NCBI GenBank assembly: GCA_023667745.1
Contig: JAMOZU010000001.1
Coordinates: 1 to 37,679 of the forward strand
Direction of reading: 5' to 3'
DNA: 37,679 bases
Source of the DNA: Ruminococcus sp.
GTDB lineage: Bacteria; Bacillota; Clostridia; Oscillospirales; Ruminococcaceae
The notes beneath the pieces are model-generated. The model did not search any database. It saw only the letters and a list, made by a program, of their open reading frames with translations, and had not been told where the DNA came from. A program made the position numbers and the translations under genes. The stretch's first letter is position 1. Every line of letters starts with the position of its first letter. Below are positions 3,188 to 23,959 of the stretch, in pieces.

Positions 3188-3556
3188 TACAAGAGCAATA
3201 ACGCCACGTTGGGGGGTCTGGGGGATGTCACCCCCAGCGGGTCAAGGGCAGAGCCCTTGCGGGGTCTGGGGCAGAGCCCCAGTGGGGTTTGGGGCAAAGC
3301 CCCAACGGCGTAAGCCGCTGTAACTAACAGAGCGTTGCAAAGAAAAGCATTGCAGGAGCAAGTTACAAAAACCGCCGCCCGACATCAAAAAAGCGTTTTG
3401 AAAAATGAGAGCAACACAAGACAACTAACAGTTACCAAGCAAGTTAATTGTCGGGCGGCGGTGCGACGTAGCGTGCAAGGCGTATGCCTTGCACAGCACG
3501 TCGCCGCCCGTCAGGGCGCATGTCGCTTACATAGACCAATAAATTAAAGCATTTCA
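3188..3556 (+). repeat. ~350-bp structured intergenic repeat (copy B) between trpB and trpA
   Basis: Colinear similarity to 14576-14921 and 23526-23940; stacked GGGGCAGAGCCCC hairpins, cggcgtaagccg, accgccgcccgac/gtcgggcggcggt stem. Confidence 0.92.
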
Positions 3557-3595
3557 TAATAATCCCCCAAAACACCCGAAAGGAGAAAAACCCAA

Positions 3596-9725: not shown

Positions 9726-10478
9726 TTACTTTCTCTTGGAAATAACTGCTGCTGCGCCGGCGGCTACCATTACAAATGCAATAGCAACTGCGGGAGTATT
9801 GCCTGTCTGCGCAGGAGTTGTAGCGGAAGCAGTGTCAGCCTGGGGAGCGGCTTCCGTAACAGCAGCCTCTGTCTCAACAGGAGCAGCCTCTGCCTCGGCA
9901 ACCTCGTCAACGGTCTCCTCTTCCTCTGCGGGAGCAGCAGCACCGCCGCCAAGCTCTTCAAAGGTCTTTCTGCCAAAGCAGTAGTCCTTGCCGTCAGCGT
10001 CGGAAACTCTGGGGAACTCGGCCTGGGGAGAACCCGCTTCAAGCTCTGCGGACTTTACGGTAACATTCTGGCACTGGAAACTTACGCCGGAATCGCCCAA
10101 TCCCGCAACTGCACTGCCGTTAAGTACAAACTCAACCGTTGTAGCCTCTTCGGGAATGCAGAACATTCCGTCGGTCTTCGCTATAACAGTGTCACTGGTG
10201 CATTCGGGGGTAAGGTCAGCCCAGCCGTTGTCAAAGTCCATGGGACGGATAAGGAACTGGTCTGCGGTGTTGGCAAGGTTCCTTGTCTCAACGGTAAGAG
10301 TTATCTTAACGTTCCCGCCGATAGCTTCAAGCTCCGTCTTGGGAATGCATGCACTTGCAGCCCATGAGCCGGGATATTCGCTGTCCATCTCGACAGTAGC
10401 CGCAAATGCGCTTACTGCACACATGGACATTGCCATTGCTCCGGCAACCGCGCCGGAAATGATTTTCTTCATGTTCAT
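9726..10478 (-). CDS. Secreted, sortase-type wall-anchored protein
   Basis: Signal peptide ending AFA; Ala/Glu/Thr/Pro linker; PAQTGN + hydrophobic helix + KRK. Confidence 0.88.
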   Translation of the reverse strand: MNMKKIISGAVAGAMAMSMCAVSAFAATVEMDSEYPGSWAASACIPKTELEAIGGNVKITLTVETRNLANTADQFLIRPMDFDNGWADLTPECTSDTVIAKTDGMFCIPEEATTVEFVLNGSAVAGLGDSGVSFQCQNVTVKSAELEAGSPQAEFPRVSDADGKDYCFGRKTFEELGGGAAAPAEEEETVDEVAEAEAAPVETEAAVTEAAPQADTASATTPAQTGNTPAVAIAFVMVAAGAAAVISKRK

Positions 10479-10517
10479 ATTCGTTGCCCTCCAATAAGTA
10501 ATCTTTATTTTTTAAAA

Positions 10518-10548
10518 CAAGCCGGCAGCCATAAGACAGCCGGCTTGA
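10518..10548 (-). terminator. Intrinsic terminator after 10572-11798
   Basis: caagccggc...gccggcttg stem followed by T-run on minus strand. Confidence 0.65.
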
Positions 10549-10571
10549 ATTTATTTTAATTCAAGGGAAAA

Positions 10572-11798
10572 TTACTTTCTCTTGGAAACAACGGCTGCTG
10601 CGCCTGCTGCAACCATTACGAATGCAACTGCGGCTACGGCGGCGTTGCCTGTTCTTACGGGAGCTGTGGTAGTGTCGGCTACGGGAGCAGTCTCAACTAC
10701 GGGAGCTTCGGTCTCAACGGGAACTGTCTCAACAACAGCCTCGGTCTCGGCAGCTACAGGCTCTGCGTCCTCTACTACCTCAACAACCTCTTCGGCGTCG
10801 TCTTCAACCAGCTCATCAGCCTCATCGGCTACAACCTCTACATCGTCATCAAGAGTAGCCTCCTCTGCTGCGGGAGCGGGAGCTGCTACGCTATCGGCGG
10901 AAACGGAGATAGTAACCTCAACGGACTCAATGGTGTCTGCGGGAGCGTCAAAGAATGTCTCCTGTGCAGCCCATGTGTTGAAGAAGCACATATCGATTAT
11001 AGTACCTGCGTCATTGTAAAGGGAAGAATCACCGGAAAGAGCAACGTCATTGCCGTTGATCTTGAAGCTCTTTACAACAGCCGAACCGCCGGGAATCGTT
11101 GCGGTATAACCTGCGGCAGGGTCGGAATCCACACAGCTTGCATCCTTTATGTAAAGAACGGTGAGAGTTGCGGGGTCGATAGACAAACCGCTGAGTGTGT
11201 AGGTGTAGTCACCTGCGCCGGTAATGGTAACATTGTTGGACTTAGTGGTAGCCCAGGTAGCATTCTCCTGGATAACCATTACAGTGTCAATGGAAACGCC
11301 TGTGTCAGCTGCGGGAGCTGCCTCTGTTTCAGCCTCGGCCTCGGGAGCTGCTACTGCACCGCCGAAATCAACGGAGGTTACATTAACCTGATAGCCTCTG
11401 ATGCAAGCACCGTTATCATTAAGTGTCTGTGCATCTGCAGCGGTAAGTGTGTAAACTACGGTGTTATCCTCTGTAACTACAGAGAAACCGTCTTCCTGAT
11501 TCTTGAAACCTGCGTCTGCGCTGGTGGCAGTCTGTGTAGCCTCAAGCTTTGTCCAGCCTTCGCCGCCGGAGCAAAGGGAAATAAGGTTGTAATCAGCGGG
11601 TATGATACTGTATGTAAGTGTTACAGTGTCACCCTCGGCTGCACCCGCAAACTTGTCAGCACCGATAACAGTACCGCTCCAGTCAGTGCCGAGGTTAATG
11701 TCTCCGTCTGCAACGTTTGCGGCAAACGCACCGGTAGCCATCATCGAAACAGCTACTGCACCTGCGGAAACGGCAGAGAGTATTTTTTTAACATTCAT
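10572..11798 (-). CDS. Secreted, sortase-type wall-anchored protein with two beta-rich domains
   Basis: Signal peptide ending AFA; acidic linker; PVRTGN + hydrophobic helix + KRK. Confidence 0.88.
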   Translation of the reverse strand: MNVKKILSAVSAGAVAVSMMATGAFAANVADGDINLGTDWSGTVIGADKFAGAAEGDTVTLTYSIIPADYNLISLCSGGEGWTKLEATQTATSADAGFKNQEDGFSVVTEDNTVVYTLTAADAQTLNDNGACIRGYQVNVTSVDFGGAVAAPEAEAETEAAPAADTGVSIDTVMVIQENATWATTKSNNVTITGAGDYTYTLSGLSIDPATLTVLYIKDASCVDSDPAAGYTATIPGGSAVVKSFKINGNDVALSGDSSLYNDAGTIIDMCFFNTWAAQETFFDAPADTIESVEVTISVSADSVAAPAPAAEEATLDDDVEVVADEADELVEDDAEEVVEVVEDAEPVAAETEAVVETVPVETEAPVVETAPVADTTTAPVRTGNAAVAAVAFVMVAAGAAAVVSKRK

Positions 11799-11820
11799 AT
11801 TTTTATCCTCCGATTCTGTC

Positions 11821-12606
11821 TTATTTCTTCTTGGAAATCAGTGCGGCAGCACCTGCAACAGCCATTACGGCAACCATAGCGGCAGCACTTGTGTTGCCGG
11901 TCTGAACGGGAGCTGTGGATGTATCGGCAACGGGAGCAGCCTCTGTAGCGGCAGGAGCGGCTTCTGTCTCTGCGGGAGCAGCCTCGGTCTCTGCGGGAGC
12001 AGCAGCAGCACCGGCATAGTCCTTCTGAGCTATCTCATTGCCGTCTTTGTCAAAGAGCTTGAAGTTGGAGATGGAAACGGTAATGCCGTTGGAAACCAAA
12101 GGCTGACCGGACCAGTCCATAAATACGAACTCTGCGGCGGAAGCGTCCTCGGGAACATTGGAAGGAAGCAGCCACTTGAAGCTGTCTTCAACGCTCTGGG
12201 AATCCTCCCAGATAGCCATTCCGTCTTCGCCCCACTCGTTGGGAGCAAGACCGTAGCCTGCGGAGTTGGTGGTGGCAACATATGTACCGCCGCCCATCCA
12301 GCCTATCTCAGTGCCGGAAAGGGAAGACAGACCGTTGTATGTAACAGTCCAGGAACCGGAATAGATCTTGGAAACATCAGCAGGATCTGCAAGAATGTCC
12401 GAAAGAGTGATCCTTGCCTTGCAGGCGGAATCGTCCGAAGAAGCGGTAAATGTGATACCGTCAGCGGAAGTGGAAATGATGTTTACTGTGCTGGGATCAT
12501 CGTCTGCATAACCTGTCTGAGACCAGTCAGCTGCGCTTACGGAAACAGAAAGTGCGGACAACGCGGCGAAAGCTGTAACACCCGCCAGAAGCTTTTTGAT
12601 TTTCAT
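11821..12606 (-). CDS. Secreted, sortase-type wall-anchored protein
   Basis: Signal peptide ending VSA; AETEAAP repeats; PVQTGN + hydrophobic helix + KKK; RBS ggaggag. Confidence 0.88.
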   Translation of the reverse strand: MKIKKLLAGVTAFAALSALSVSVSAADWSQTGYADDDPSTVNIISTSADGITFTASSDDSACKARITLSDILADPADVSKIYSGSWTVTYNGLSSLSGTEIGWMGGGTYVATTNSAGYGLAPNEWGEDGMAIWEDSQSVEDSFKWLLPSNVPEDASAAEFVFMDWSGQPLVSNGITVSISNFKLFDKDGNEIAQKDYAGAAAAPAETEAAPAETEAAPAATEAAPVADTSTAPVQTGNTSAAAMVAVMAVAGAAALISKKK

Positions 12607-13054: not shown

Positions 13055-13083
13055 TTGAAAAAAAATTATTGACGTGGTATAAT
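13055..13083 (+). promoter_or_regulatory. sigmaA promoter of cdaA
   Basis: TTGAAA-17 nt-TATAAT with TG. Confidence 0.75.
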
Positions 13084-13169: not shown

Positions 13170-14570
13170 ATGGAACTGATAAACGAAGTGCGCAGCGTGC
13201 TTAATACGATACTGCCCCTCAGCTTTTGGGACGTTCTTGATATAGCGGTTCTCAGCGTACTTATCTACAAAGGCTGCCAGCTTCTTCTGGAAACAAGGGC
13301 AGTGGGGCTTGTAAAAGGGCTGATGGCACTTGTGGCGGCATATGTCGTTGCAAGGATATTTCAGATGAAAACGCTTATATTCGTGCTGGAGAATGTATTC
13401 AGCATAGGCGTGCTTGCCATTTTGATCCTTTTTCAGCCGGAGATACGGCGGACGCTGGAGCGGGTGGGTCATATGGAATTTCTGGAGCGGACATCGGGCA
13501 ATCAGGAAGTTCTGGCAAAGCGGAACAGCCACGCCATAAACGCCATCTGCGCCGCCTGCCGCAAGCTCTCCGACGAGCGCACGGGGGCACTCATAGTAAT
13601 AGAACGTCGGACAAAACTGGGGGAGCATATCAACGGCACTGTCCTGAACGCCGTCCCGAGCGAGAAATTTTTCGATACCATTTTCTATAACGGCACTCCC
13701 CTTCACGACGGCGCAGTCATAATGCGGGGGGGGCTTATCCACGCCGCTGCTTGTTTCCTGCCCACAGCCTCAAAGGAAGAGACCGTTGACAAAGCCCTCG
13801 GCGCACGGCACAGAGCGGCCATCGGCATGAGCGAGAACTCGGATGCCGTTATTATCGTGGTTTCCGAGGAAACGGGGAAAATCTCGGTAGCCGAAAACGG
13901 ACTTTTGAAAGAGGACTTTTCCATATTCGACCTGCGCCCATACCTTACCTCAAAACAAACCACTTTTTCCGCCTTTTCCGAGGGCTATAAGCCGGAAACC
14001 CACAGCGCAGCAGCCGCAGTGTGCGACGCATGCGAGAACTTTTCGGACAACTCAACGGGAGCAATTATCATAATCGAAAGAGGGCAGGTGCTTGACCAGT
14101 TTTTGACCAACGTCACCGTCATAGACGCACTGCCTACAAAAGAAGCGTTGGGAACGATATTCTATAAAGGCACAGCCATGAGCCAACAGGCGGTCATTAT
14201 ACGGGACGGGCTGATACATTCGGCGGCTACCATAAACGTTCTCCTGCCGGAGACGCTGGAGAACAAAACCTTGGGCGCAAGGCATAAAGCGGCAATAGGA
14301 TTATCCCGCTGTTCGGACGCACTTGTTATTGTCGTTTCCGAGGAAACGGGAACGATATCGGTAGCGGACAATGTAAAGGGCGATGACTTTACACGGCGGG
14401 GATATGACCGTGATGAACTGCGGCAGTATCTGGCGGACAATATGAATCCGCAGAAAGAGGAAGAGGAAGCGGAGGAAACGAAAGAAGAGTCGCCGATAGC
14501 GGCATTGAAAAAGAGATTAGAGGACAGAAGCAAGAAGCAGGAAGCAAGAAGCAAGAAGCAGGACAAGTAA
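13170..14570 (+). CDS. cdaA: Diadenylate cyclase CdaA with duplicated DAC (DisA_N) domain
   Basis: Three TM helices then FQPEIRRTLE; domain 1 has GALIVIER, PLHDGAVI, GARHRAAIG, VVSEETG; domain 2 repeats GAIIIIER, GARHKAAIG, VVSEETG; followed by cdaR. Confidence 0.93.
   Translation: MELINEVRSVLNTILPLSFWDVLDIAVLSVLIYKGCQLLLETRAVGLVKGLMALVAAYVVARIFQMKTLIFVLENVFSIGVLAILILFQPEIRRTLERVGHMEFLERTSGNQEVLAKRNSHAINAICAACRKLSDERTGALIVIERRTKLGEHINGTVLNAVPSEKFFDTIFYNGTPLHDGAVIMRGGLIHAAACFLPTASKEETVDKALGARHRAAIGMSENSDAVIIVVSEETGKISVAENGLLKEDFSIFDLRPYLTSKQTTFSAFSEGYKPETHSAAAAVCDACENFSDNSTGAIIIIERGQVLDQFLTNVTVIDALPTKEALGTIFYKGTAMSQQAVIIRDGLIHSAATINVLLPETLENKTLGARHKAAIGLSRCSDALVIVVSEETGTISVADNVKGDDFTRRGYDRDELRQYLADNMNPQKEEEEAEETKEESPIAALKKRLEDRSKKQEARSKKQDK
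14526..14560 (+). repeat. Heptamer tandem repeat (AGAAGCA)x5 in cdaA 3' end
   Basis: agaagca agaagca ggaagca agaagca agaagca. Confidence 0.85.
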
Positions 14571-14575
14571 AGCAA

Positions 14576-14921
14576 TACAAGAGCAGTAGCGCACGTTGGG
14601 GGGTCTGGGGGATTCCACCCCCAGCGGGTCAAGGGCGGAGCCCTGCGGGGTTTGGGGCAGAGCCCCAACGGCGTAAGCCGCTGTAACTAACAGCACATTG
14701 CAAAGAAAAGCATTGCACGAGCAAGTAACCTCAACCGCCGCCCGACCACCGAAAAAAGCGTTTTGAAAGACGAGAGCAACACAAGAAAACTAACATCAAC
14801 CAAGCAAGTAACGGTCGGGCGGCGGTGCGGCATAGAAATGCACGGCGTATGCCGTGCGTTTCATGCCGCCGCCCGTCAGGGCGCATGTTACTAACATAGA
14901 CCAACAAATTATCGCATTTCA
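14576..14921 (+). repeat. ~350-bp structured intergenic repeat (copy D) between cdaA and cdaR
   Basis: Colinear with 3188-3556 from tacaagagca to gcatttca. Confidence 0.92.
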
Positions 14922-14952
14922 CAGTAAAATCAAATTACCGAGGTTTTCTGCC

Positions 14953-16260
14953 ATGTACAAAAAAATCACCGAATTTCTGACAAACCTGTTCCGCAAGGAC
15001 ATCTCCCTTAAAATAATCTCCATAGTCCTTGCCATAGGCGTGTGGGCGGCGGTTTCCATCACCGAGTACCCCATAATCGAGACCACATTCTACAATATCC
15101 CCATGACCATATCCATGGAGGGGACATATGCGCAGGCAAATCAGCTGGATACGGTAAATCCCCCCTCACAGACAGTCACCCTTACCATATCGGGAGAAAG
15201 AGGAAAAATAGGCAGTCTCAAAGCGGAGGACTTCACCGCATGGCTGGATATGTCAACGGTAATGCTCCCAAGAGAATACAACCTTCCCGTAAGGGTTACC
15301 TGCACCGCCGACAGCGAGTTTGATGTAAAAAGCATAGAACCCTCTTCCCTGCGGGTCTCCTTTGACAAGATAGTCTCAAAGGAGTTCGAGGTCTCTCCCC
15401 TGCTGGAAAACGCTTCCATAGCCGCAGGATATATGAGCGGCGACCCTATAGTTACCCCGTCGACTGTTACGGTAACAGGCCCGCAGAACACCATCAACAC
15501 CATCACAGACGCAAGAGTGAAAGTGTCCCCCAACAGAGTCCTCGACTCCACTTACGATTTTACCTCCGACCAGATAGTCCTCTATAACGGTAACTCCGTC
15601 CTTGCGGACACATCTTCCCTCTCTTTCGACAAAACTTCCTTTTCCGTACAGATACCCGTCTTCGTCCGCAAGACCCTGCCCTTGGACGTTGATATCATAA
15701 ACGCCCCCGAAAATTTCGACCTCGATTACTTCCGGGAACAGCTGACCTATTCCGTAAATGAGCTTACCATAGCTGCCCCCAACGACAAGATAAACGAGCG
15801 GGAGAGCCTTTCTATCGGCACGATCAATATGCGGGAGGTGGACAAAGGCTCACGCTTTGAGTTCCGCACGGAAAATTTTCTCCCCGAAGGCTATGAGAAC
15901 CTCTCCCAGACGGACGTTATAACCGTTACCTGCCCCTCCGAGGGGATAGCCGCCAAGCCTATAGTCATCATGGGCAAGGATATACAGTTCGTGAACCGCC
16001 CGCCTCAGTTCGAGTTTACCCCCGTGGTCTCCGGGCTTACCATTTCCCTTGTGGGGGACGAGGAGCAGATAGCGGAAATTTCCAGCGCAGACATAACCGC
16101 CCAGATAGACCTGTTTGACTTTGACATGGAAGAGGGGGACAAAAACCTTCCCGTTGACATTATCATCTTCTCATACGACAAAGTATGGTTCAGCGGCAAG
16201 GACGGAGTTGCCACGCCGAAGATATATGTTACCGCAAGGTATATTGAGATAGAAGAGTGA
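14953..16260 (+). CDS. cdaR: CdaR/YbbR-like regulator of diadenylate cyclase
   Basis: LKIISIVLAIGVW N-terminal TM; VTLTISG, DFTAWLDM, P.TVTVTGP, DITAQIDL YbbR repeats; position after cdaA. Confidence 0.88.
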   Translation: MYKKITEFLTNLFRKDISLKIISIVLAIGVWAAVSITEYPIIETTFYNIPMTISMEGTYAQANQLDTVNPPSQTVTLTISGERGKIGSLKAEDFTAWLDMSTVMLPREYNLPVRVTCTADSEFDVKSIEPSSLRVSFDKIVSKEFEVSPLLENASIAAGYMSGDPIVTPSTVTVTGPQNTINTITDARVKVSPNRVLDSTYDFTSDQIVLYNGNSVLADTSSLSFDKTSFSVQIPVFVRKTLPLDVDIINAPENFDLDYFREQLTYSVNELTIAAPNDKINERESLSIGTINMREVDKGSRFEFRTENFLPEGYENLSQTDVITVTCPSEGIAAKPIVIMGKDIQFVNRPPQFEFTPVVSGLTISLVGDEEQIAEISSADITAQIDLFDFDMEEGDKNLPVDIIIFSYDKVWFSGKDGVATPKIYVTARYIEIEE

Positions 16261-23525: not shown

Positions 23526-23940
23526 GGGTCATATGTTTTTTCAAAACATCGGCGAAGCCTTTGCGGGACGGGGTCAAGGGGTGAAGCCTTTGCGGGACGG
23601 GGTCAAGGGGCGAAGCCCTTGCGGGGTCAAGGGGCAGAGCCCTTGCCGGGTCTGGGGCGGAGCTCCAGCGGGGTTTGGGGCAGAGCCCCAACGGCGTAAG
23701 CCGCTGTAACTGACAGTAAGCTGCAAGCAAAAGCATTGCAGTAGCAAGTAACCTCAACCGCCGCCCGACCGCCGAAAAAGCGTTTTGATAAATGAAAGTG
23801 GAACAGAAAAATTAACTGTTACCGAGCAAGTAAAGGTCGGGCGGCGGTGCGGCGTAGCGTGTGCGACGAATGTCGCACACAGCACGCCGCCGCCCGTGAG
23901 GGCGCATGTCGATAACAAATACCGACAAATTAAAGCATTA
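23526..23940 (+). repeat. Structured intergenic repeat (copy E) with expanded hairpin array
   Basis: Same core as copies B and D; extra GGGGC(A/G)(G/A)AGCCC units including a 29-bp tandem duplication. Confidence 0.92.
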
Positions 23941-23959
23941 CAATTTCATTGTCCATTTA

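What the first reader, a model, noticed from the sequence alone, without database searches (positions are those of the whole stretch)
13170..14570. CdaA with two tandem DAC domains, the second catalytically degenerate
Seen: after three TM helices the DAC domain occurs twice (~13530-13950 and ~14005-14430). Domain 1 keeps HDGA (13704-13715) and RHR (13806-13814). Domain 2 keeps GAIIIIER, IFY, AAIG and VVSEETG but has SQQA in place of HDGA (14181-14192) and RHK in place of RHR (14280-14288); both read GARH rather than the usual GTRH. Known: ordinary CdaA has one DAC domain and catalysis needs two DAC domains face to face, each binding ATP. Inference: the frame is intact and the two copies are well diverged, so domain 2 looks retained rather than decaying. 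It could form an intramolecular pseudo-heterodimer with an asymmetric site, act as a built-in inhibitor or nucleotide sensor, or change the product. glmM, the usual third gene and CdaA inhibitor, does not follow cdaR here. I do not know this architecture from the literature.
Basis: partly seen in the sequence, partly recalled or inferred. Interest (0 to 1): 0.82.

Follow-up and report, generated by a model that had tools for sequence, protein, structure and literature searches.

The report
CdaA with built-in dead cyclase copy
In a small group of Ruminococcus-like bacteria, the gene for the enzyme family that makes the signal c-di-AMP carries a second, strongly conserved copy of its catalytic domain that has lost key catalytic residues and likely serves as a built-in structural partner, a design that likely arose several times and would let biologists test what the idle half of the normal enzyme does.

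Summary
Real. The 466-aa ORF has three membrane helices and two DAC domains 48% alike. It is the only DAC gene found in this 81%-complete genome. Three of 28 genus genomes with a DAC match carry it; 0 of 386 other family genomes do. Domain 2 is under strong purifying selection (dN/dS 0.02-0.04) and has lost the catalytic His-Asp-Gly. RHK, GARH and the unlinked glmM, flagged as odd, are ordinary variation. Of 42 multi-DAC proteins found, 41 keep exactly one intact site, either first or last, and one shared origin of the dead copies is rejected. Best reading (0.55): the two domains form, in one chain, CdaA's normal side-to-side dimer; domain 2 takes the idle 'distal' seat and domain 1 pairs between chains to make c-di-AMP. 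A built-in brake or sensor is next (0.27). The geometry is inferred, not shown. My searches found no report in print, but Galperin 2023 was unreadable. The scan had no look-alike of this sequence; it noted a different, PRTase-fused tandem DAC elsewhere.

The parts
13055..13083 (+). Sigma-70-type promoter-like site (TTGAAA-17-TATAAT with TG) upstream of cdaA
   Evidence: a consensus match only (11 of 12)
13170..14570 (+). cdaA, 466 aa: three membrane helices, DAC domain 1, linker, DAC domain 2, variable tail
   Evidence: TIGR00159 327 bits against a cut-off of 189; only DAC gene found in G000
13209..13430 (+). N-terminal membrane region, three helices (CdaA_N, residues about 14-87)
   Evidence: PF19293; hydropathy peaks; helices in the model
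13530..13949 (+). DAC domain 1 (residues 121-260), intact: HDGA 13704-13715, GARHR 13800-13814
   Evidence: keeps 42 of 43 positions that are at least 90% conserved in single-domain CdaA; dN/dS 0.02
13950..14003 (+). 18-residue linker between the domains
   Evidence: 10 of 18 positions vary in the clade; length 18
14004..14435 (+). DAC domain 2 (residues 279-422), pseudo-catalytic: SQQA 14181-14192 in place of HDGA; GARHK 14274-14288 and SEET 14337-14348 kept
   Evidence: keeps 28 of 43 conserved positions; dN/dS 0.02-0.04; 20 of 144 positions vary among 20 full-length or nearly full-length clade proteins
14953..16260 (+). cdaR (YbbR-domain regulator), next gene
   Evidence: PF07949; 89% identical to the G008 copy and 59-63% to those of single-domain relatives

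Best explanation
This is the cell's CdaA gene with an internally duplicated DAC domain, and the two domains likely fold together as a one-chain version of CdaA's normal side-to-side dimer, with domain 2 likely an inactive scaffold and domain 1 predicted to make ordinary c-di-AMP by meeting domain 1 of another chain. In ordinary CdaA tetramers only the inward-facing (proximal) site of each side-to-side dimer is engaged and the outward (distal) site is idle. Once the dimer is fused into one chain, one copy would sit permanently in the idle seat and could lose its His-Asp-Gly at no cost. Both copies then co-adapted, and domain 1 likely came to depend on domain 2 for a stable fold, which would explain the strong selection. 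Shown here: architecture, loss of the motif, selection, rarity, and the one-intact-site pattern. Taken from papers: dimer geometry and catalytic residues. Inferred: the packing, the oligomer and the product.
For: (1) Domain 2 lacks His-Asp, which 264 of 264 single-domain relatives keep; Asp and Gly mutants are inactive in DacM and D171N CdaA is used as the inactive control. (2) dN/dS is 0.035-0.041 in domain 2 against 0.022-0.024 in domain 1. (3) AlphaFold2 gives the two-domain piece pLDDT 87 and pTM 0.85. (4) CdaA forms side-to-side dimers whose distal sites have no known role (PMC11686323), and a disulfide-locked side-to-side dimer is as active as wild type (PMC6368335). (5) 41 of 42 multi-DAC proteins keep exactly one HDG+RH site. 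P0090 and P0324 share 77 of 89 membrane-region residues, yet have the dead copy at opposite ends. (6) Over 10 dead domains, nucleotide-site residues match the live copy at 39 of 100 (baseline 83%), while the dimer-face segment matches at 110 of 220 (baseline 43%). (7) Both copies sit on long stems (0.34 and 0.78) with short tips, which fits co-adaptation and then constraint.
Against: The packing geometry could not be read from any tool: the structure tool returns no coordinates and the complex predictor was not available. In the window's own protein the dimer face is not specially conserved between the copies (10 of 22 segment positions, 2 of 7 named interface residues). Domain 2 keeps Arg-His and Ser-Glu-Glu unchanged across the clade, more than most other dead copies do, which fits a leftover ligand role. 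The 10 dead domains are not independent lineages. P0147 and P0005 have three and four copies, which a simple dimer-in-one-chain model does not explain. How eight DAC domains would hang from a membrane tetramer is unknown.
Confidence: 0.55

Rival explanations
1. Domain 2 is a built-in regulator. It would act as a brake by offering a dead face that competes for domain 1, or as a sensor that binds ATP or c-di-AMP through its retained Arg-His and Ser-Glu-Glu and so tunes domain 1.
For: R371, H372, S390 and E392 are unchanged in 21 of 21 clade proteins with a full second domain after a long stem. Selection on domain 2 is nearly as strong as on the catalytic copy. CdaA shows positive cooperativity for ATP (PMC11686323). 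The B. subtilis GlmM-contact Arg126 (PMC8573169) is not among the 8 commonest residues at that position in these relatives, so GlmM control may be weak in this family (inferred).
Against: The ribose contacts Asp and Gly and the stacking aromatic named in PMC6368335 are replaced by Gln/Ser, Gln and Ile. Most other tandem lineages lost the RH and SEE residues as well, so nucleotide binding is not what tandem forms generally keep. glmM is present in the tandem genomes G008 and G013 and unlinked across the genus, so nothing marks domain 2 as its replacement.
Confidence: 0.27
2. Domains 1 and 2 meet face to face and form a lopsided active site with one working half, which would give a linear pppApA-type product or slow two-step synthesis.
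For: Domain 2 lost His-Asp-Gly but kept Arg-His and the metal Glu. From recall of the Listeria structure (paper not held), the His-Asp pair and the Glu come from opposite subunits, so one half-site could survive.
Against: It is the only DAC gene found in G000, G008 (100% complete) and G013 (99%), so it must likely supply c-di-AMP. Face-to-face CdaA pairing is transient, while side-to-side pairing is the stable one. Most other dead copies lack the Arg-His or the Glu as well. Gln at the Gly of DGA would likely block the ribose pocket.
Confidence: 0.08
3. Domain 2 is a loosely tethered leftover of a duplication with no job, tolerated and slowly decaying.
For: DAC segments duplicate readily in this genus: partial repeats occur in G016 (L035) and P0145. 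The form is rare.
Against: dN/dS is about 0.04 over dS above 1. Domain 2 is 93% identical between the two main clusters while the linker and tail drift. The predicted packing is confident.
Confidence: 0.05

Closest known systems
CdaA/DacA membrane diadenylate cyclase (TIGR00159; PF19293 + PF02457; PDB 6HVL, 6GYW, 6HUW, 9G69)
   Same: Three membrane helices, an intact DGA/RHR DAC domain (model rmsd 1.3 A to B. subtilis CdaA), followed by cdaR, sole DAC gene found in the genome.
   Different: A second, diverged, pseudo-catalytic DAC domain in the same chain. No solved chain matched more than one domain.
Side-to-side 'inactive' CdaA dimer, and the disulfide-locked S. aureus DacA N166C/T172C dimer (PMC6368335; PMC11686323)
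   Same: Two DAC domains fixed together, of which only one site need engage; locking them did not reduce activity.
   Different: Those are homodimers with two intact sites. Here the pair is genetically fused and asymmetric, and the geometry is inferred.
Other multi-DAC proteins found here (P0004/P0006, P0005, P0090, P0324, P0141 group, P0142/P0303, P0147, P0151)
   Same: One intact DAC site plus one to three dead copies.
   Different: Different dead motifs and order. One clade for all dead copies is rejected (p-AU 0.0036). Most lost RH and SEE, which the window's clade keeps.
Degenerate GGDEF/EAL domains and mammalian adenylyl cyclase C1/C2 pseudo-heterodimers (recalled, not tested)
   Same: A duplicated cyclase domain loses catalysis and is kept for structure or regulation.
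   Different: Unrelated folds. In C1/C2 the two domains build one shared active site, which is the less likely reading here.

Membership tests
CdaA/DacA | N-terminal three-helix membrane domain | tested here: met
   PF19293 45 bits over cut-off 23.8; three hydropathy peaks
CdaA/DacA | DAC domain with DGA and RHR motifs | tested here: met
   Domain 1 HDGA and RHR; 42 of 43 conserved positions kept
CdaA/DacA | Equivalog model TIGR00159 above cut-off | tested here: met
   327.3 bits against 188.8; the score sums two stretches
CdaA/DacA | A single DAC domain per chain | tested here: not met
   Two PF02457 stretches; hence filed as a variant, not a plain member
CdaA/DacA | cdaR (ybbR) directly downstream | tested here: met
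   PF07949 on 14953-16260, separated by a dispersed repeat
CdaA/DacA | glmM in the same operon (Bacilli pattern) | tested here: not met
   Unlinked in 25 of 25 genus genomes that show both genes, single-domain ones included; no glmM match in G000, 81% complete
CdaA/DacA | Makes c-di-AMP from two ATP | not testable with these tools
   Needs an assay; inferred from domain 1 motifs
CdaA/DacA | Side-to-side DAC dimer and membrane tetramer | tested here: inconclusive
   pTM 0.85 for the two-domain piece, geometry not readable; interface conservation neutral in this protein
CdaS (sporulation DAC) | Soluble, N-terminal YojJ helices | tested here: not met
   NF038328 passes its cut-off only as a sum of two DAC stretches; the N-terminus is CdaA_N
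DisA, DacZ, CdaM | Family model above cut-off | tested here: not met
   35 against 201, 41.7 against 430, 184.6 against 225 bits

The most novel reading that the evidence does not exclude
Bacteria have repeatedly turned the idle distal DAC site into a dedicated pseudo-cyclase subunit, and in this clade it has become a built-in nucleotide-sensing regulator: domain 2 binds c-di-AMP or ATP through its retained Arg-His and Ser-Glu-Glu and controls domain 1, giving CdaA a self-contained feedback loop not described so far.
Probability: 0.2. Interest if true: 0.8.

Novelty: new variant of a known kind. Interest (0 to 1): 0.52.

Why it matters
[quoted passage not shown] In a homo-oligomer the proximal and distal sites cannot be mutated separately. 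These tandem proteins would separate them genetically, and nature has made both orders (live-dead and dead-live). If the reading holds, the distal site is dispensable while the side-to-side partner is not, and the protein is a ready scaffold for structures of an asymmetric cyclase dimer. It is also a clean case of repeated pseudo-enzyme birth in an essential signalling enzyme. The scope is narrow: a few rare lineages, mostly uncultured.

Tried and rejected
Assembly artefact: rejected. The copies are 48% identical, two other genomes and two protein clusters of 7 and 15 members share the gene, and one contig of run X1 bridges 13707-14249 with one differing letter (X1 may be the source sample, so it is not independent). 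P0003 is a chimera of an unrelated N-terminus with the tandem and is not counted as a lineage. P0143, P0156 and P0229 have near-identical or partial repeats, likely artefacts. RHK as a sign of decay, GARH as a sign of lost activity, and missing glmM as linked to the tandem: all rejected. Other family genomes with two matches: G370 has two genes on separate contigs; G060 and G124 have one frameshifted gene each. The metagenome scan gave only two single-domain CdaA loci. The search for longer fusions gave 5 proteins, none with two full DAC domains. P0294 gave no match at E 1e-100 in the 401 family genomes, with no positive control, so it shows nothing. No RNA holder was listed. The PAS_GdpP family was not found in 5 genomes while a DHHA1 gene in an open frame of about 700 aa was; not followed up. 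Fold searches found no solved chain spanning both domains. Sister status of domains 1 and 2 is in the best tree but weakly supported (66/83). Enrichment of domain 1's rare changes in the dimer face was looked at by eye (3 of 13) and is not significant.

Full report
Observation. The frame from ATG 13170 to the stop at 14570 encodes 466 aa. Pfam finds the CdaA membrane domain and two DAC stretches. TIGR00159 (CdaA) passes its cut-off; the DisA, DacZ and CdaM models do not. The copies are 48% identical over 143 residues with no long DNA match, and tblastn finds no other DAC gene in the genome, which is 81% complete. The next gene is cdaR.

Distribution. Three of 28 genus genomes with a DAC match carry the tandem: G000, G008 and G013 (30 searched). 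Their records are titled uncultured Ruminococcus sp. (L041, L042). In an even draw of 401 family genomes, 387 had a match and four had two. Apart from G000 these were two separate genes (G370) or one frameshifted gene (G060, G124), so 0 of 386 others are tandem. Two protein clusters of 7 and 15 members, 84-92% identical to the window protein where full length, share the design. A DAC-only profile run over 1.84 billion representatives found 6,535 proteins at E 1e-10 or better. Of the best 150, 11 had more than one stretch and 6 were full, diverged multi-DAC proteins. That count is a floor: 50% clustering hides tandem forms and distant DAC types fall below the listed cut.

Selection. Between the window and G008 or G013, dN/dS is 0.041 and 0.035 for domain 2 at dS 1.10 and 1.21, against 0.022 and 0.024 for domain 1. 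Between G008 and G013 it is 0.024 for domain 2 (Nei-Gojobori, three sequences). Among 20 full-length or nearly full-length clade proteins, 6 of 140 positions vary in domain 1, 20 of 144 in domain 2, 10 of 18 in the linker and 34 of 44 in the tail. Domain 2 is therefore kept, not decaying.

What is really degenerate. Among 264 distinct single-domain relatives, His-Asp is present in 264 and His-Asp-Gly in 263, while RHK occurs in 12 and GARHR in 1. Ala before RHR is also found in Mycoplasma ovipneumoniae DacM, an active enzyme in which Asp, Gly, Tyr and Arg mutants were lethal to activity (10.1101/2022.03.11.483894, part 1 of 4 and passages; PDB link). D171N CdaA is the usual inactive control (10.1101/2023.01.09.523207, passages). 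So only the change of HDG to S-[SQ]-Q marks domain 2 as dead; RHK and GARH do not. In S. aureus DacA the Asp and Gly touch the ribose, the Thr the phosphates and the Tyr the base (PMC6368335 section 7). Domain 2 has Gln/Ser, Gln, Ala and Ile there; domain 1 has Asp, Gly, Ala and Phe. Domain 2 still keeps Arg-His and Ser-Glu-Glu. glmM is present above cut-off in 26 of 30 genus genomes, including G008 and G013. In the 25 that also show cdaA it lies on another contig (24) or about 130 kb away (1) (my comparison). Its absence after cdaR is a genus trait.

A repeated pattern. A tandem profile brought in more such proteins. Of 400 proteins held, 42 have two or more full DAC domains: 21 of the window's clade (one is the chimera P0003) and 21 others. 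In 41 of 42 exactly one domain keeps HDG plus RH; the exception, P0143, has 76% identical copies and looks like an artefact. The dead copy is second in the window's clade, P0004/P0006, P0324 and P0151, and first in P0090, the P0141 group and P0142/P0303. P0090 and P0324 share 77 of 89 membrane-region residues yet have the dead copy at opposite ends; both rest on few records (1 and 3 members). A tree of 66 domains, leaving out P0147, P0151 and the dead copies of P0005, rejects one clade for nine dead copies (p-AU 0.0036, LG+G4 without mixture model, long branches present). It places the window's two domains as sisters with weak support (66/83). Both share the rare Ala before RH, which fits an internal duplication. 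Stems are long (0.34 for domain 1, 0.78 for domain 2) and tips short (0.01-0.04).

Mechanism. [quoted passage not shown] Only the proximal sites meet head to head, and the authors call the role of the distal sites unclear (PMC11686323, passages, section 10 and part 1 of section 13). The side-to-side interface uses strand 2, helix 3 and the following loop, and locking it with disulfides left activity unchanged (PMC6368335, passages and section 8; PMC8573169, passages and section 5). A fused pair of DAC domains would most simply adopt this stable dimer, and one copy would then sit in the idle seat. That predicts one live site per chain, either order, erosion of the nucleotide site and retention of the dimer face. 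The first two are seen. For the third, ten dead domains match their live partner at 39 of 100 nucleotide-site positions, against 83% for single-domain pairs of similar overall identity. They match at 110 of 220 dimer-face positions against 43%, and at 441 of 1,051 other positions against 49% (lineages are not independent, and the roles of His170, His204, Arg205, Ser222 and Glu224 in the site list are recalled). In the window's own protein the dimer face is only at baseline (10 of 22; 2 of 7 named residues), which neither supports nor excludes the model, as both copies changed there. AlphaFold2 models the full protein at pLDDT 79, pTM 0.66 and the two-domain piece at pLDDT 87, pTM 0.85. This predicts a defined packing but not which one: no coordinates are returned and the complex predictor was not available. 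Linkers are 15-44 residues across lineages, 18 here.

Rivals. A built-in brake or sensor (0.27) is the serious alternative, because this clade keeps Arg-His and Ser-Glu-Glu where most other dead copies lost them. A lopsided face-to-face site with a new product (0.08) is unlikely: this is the only DAC gene found in genomes 99-100% complete, and Gln replaces the ribose-contact Gly. A functionless relic (0.05) is contradicted.

Novelty. Six searches of the held library for tandem, duplicated or degenerate DAC domains listed no paper on this architecture. Passages of PMC12901056, PMC13700151, PMC13640721 and PMC10167629 did not mention it. The main survey, Galperin 2023, which PMC12901056 says lists 22 DAC families, was not held, nor were He 2020, Heidemann 2019, Rosenberg 2015 or Commichau 2019; a tandem entry there or in their supplements cannot be excluded. 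Sources name the clade's proteins simply 'diadenylate cyclase CdaA'. The scan's own notes had no look-alike of this sequence. They had two unchecked notes on other DAC pairs, one a PRTase fused to one dead and one near-canonical DAC domain.

Verdict. A real, rare, conserved architectural variant of CdaA, and one of several likely independent live-plus-dead DAC fusions. It most likely works as ordinary CdaA with its dimer partner built in. New variant of a known kind; interest 0.52.

Noticed in passing
window 14571-14925: A roughly 350-bp dispersed, palindrome-rich repeat sits between cdaA and cdaR, with 69 other blastn matches in the genome, including window 3188-3562, 23647-23942 and 1-91. 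G008 has a different spacer of about 170 bp there, while six single-domain relatives have cdaA and cdaR abutting.
   Followed up: partly
window 9726-12606 (- strand): Three divergently transcribed genes for secreted-looking proteins with no Pfam or NCBIfam match. The two whose full sequence I read end in a T-G-N motif, a hydrophobic stretch and lysines, like a sortase-type anchor (recalled). Related genes lie upstream of cdaA in G013.
   Followed up: no
L035:4831-6180 (G016) and P0145: Single-domain CdaA proteins of the genus with a partial repeat of the last third of the DAC domain in the tail, showing that DAC segments duplicate in this group.
   Followed up: partly
P0151; P0147; P0005: Other multi-DAC designs: live DAC, dead DAC and a SpoIIE phosphatase domain (P0151); three DAC domains and no CdaA_N (P0147); CdaA with one live and three dead DAC domains (P0005).
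   Followed up: partly
P0165, P0270, P0272: Proteins of 660-684 aa that look like CdaA fused to a CdaR-like C-terminal part, judged by eye.
   Followed up: no
P0291, P0292: Long proteins whose precomputed Pfam lists join a DAC domain with DHH and DHHA1 domains, a possible cyclase-phosphodiesterase fusion or an assembly chimera; each is a singleton.
   Followed up: no
L040:4086-4994 (G007): Single-domain CdaA with HDCA in place of HDGA and an inserted loop, the only DAC match in that genome.
   Followed up: no
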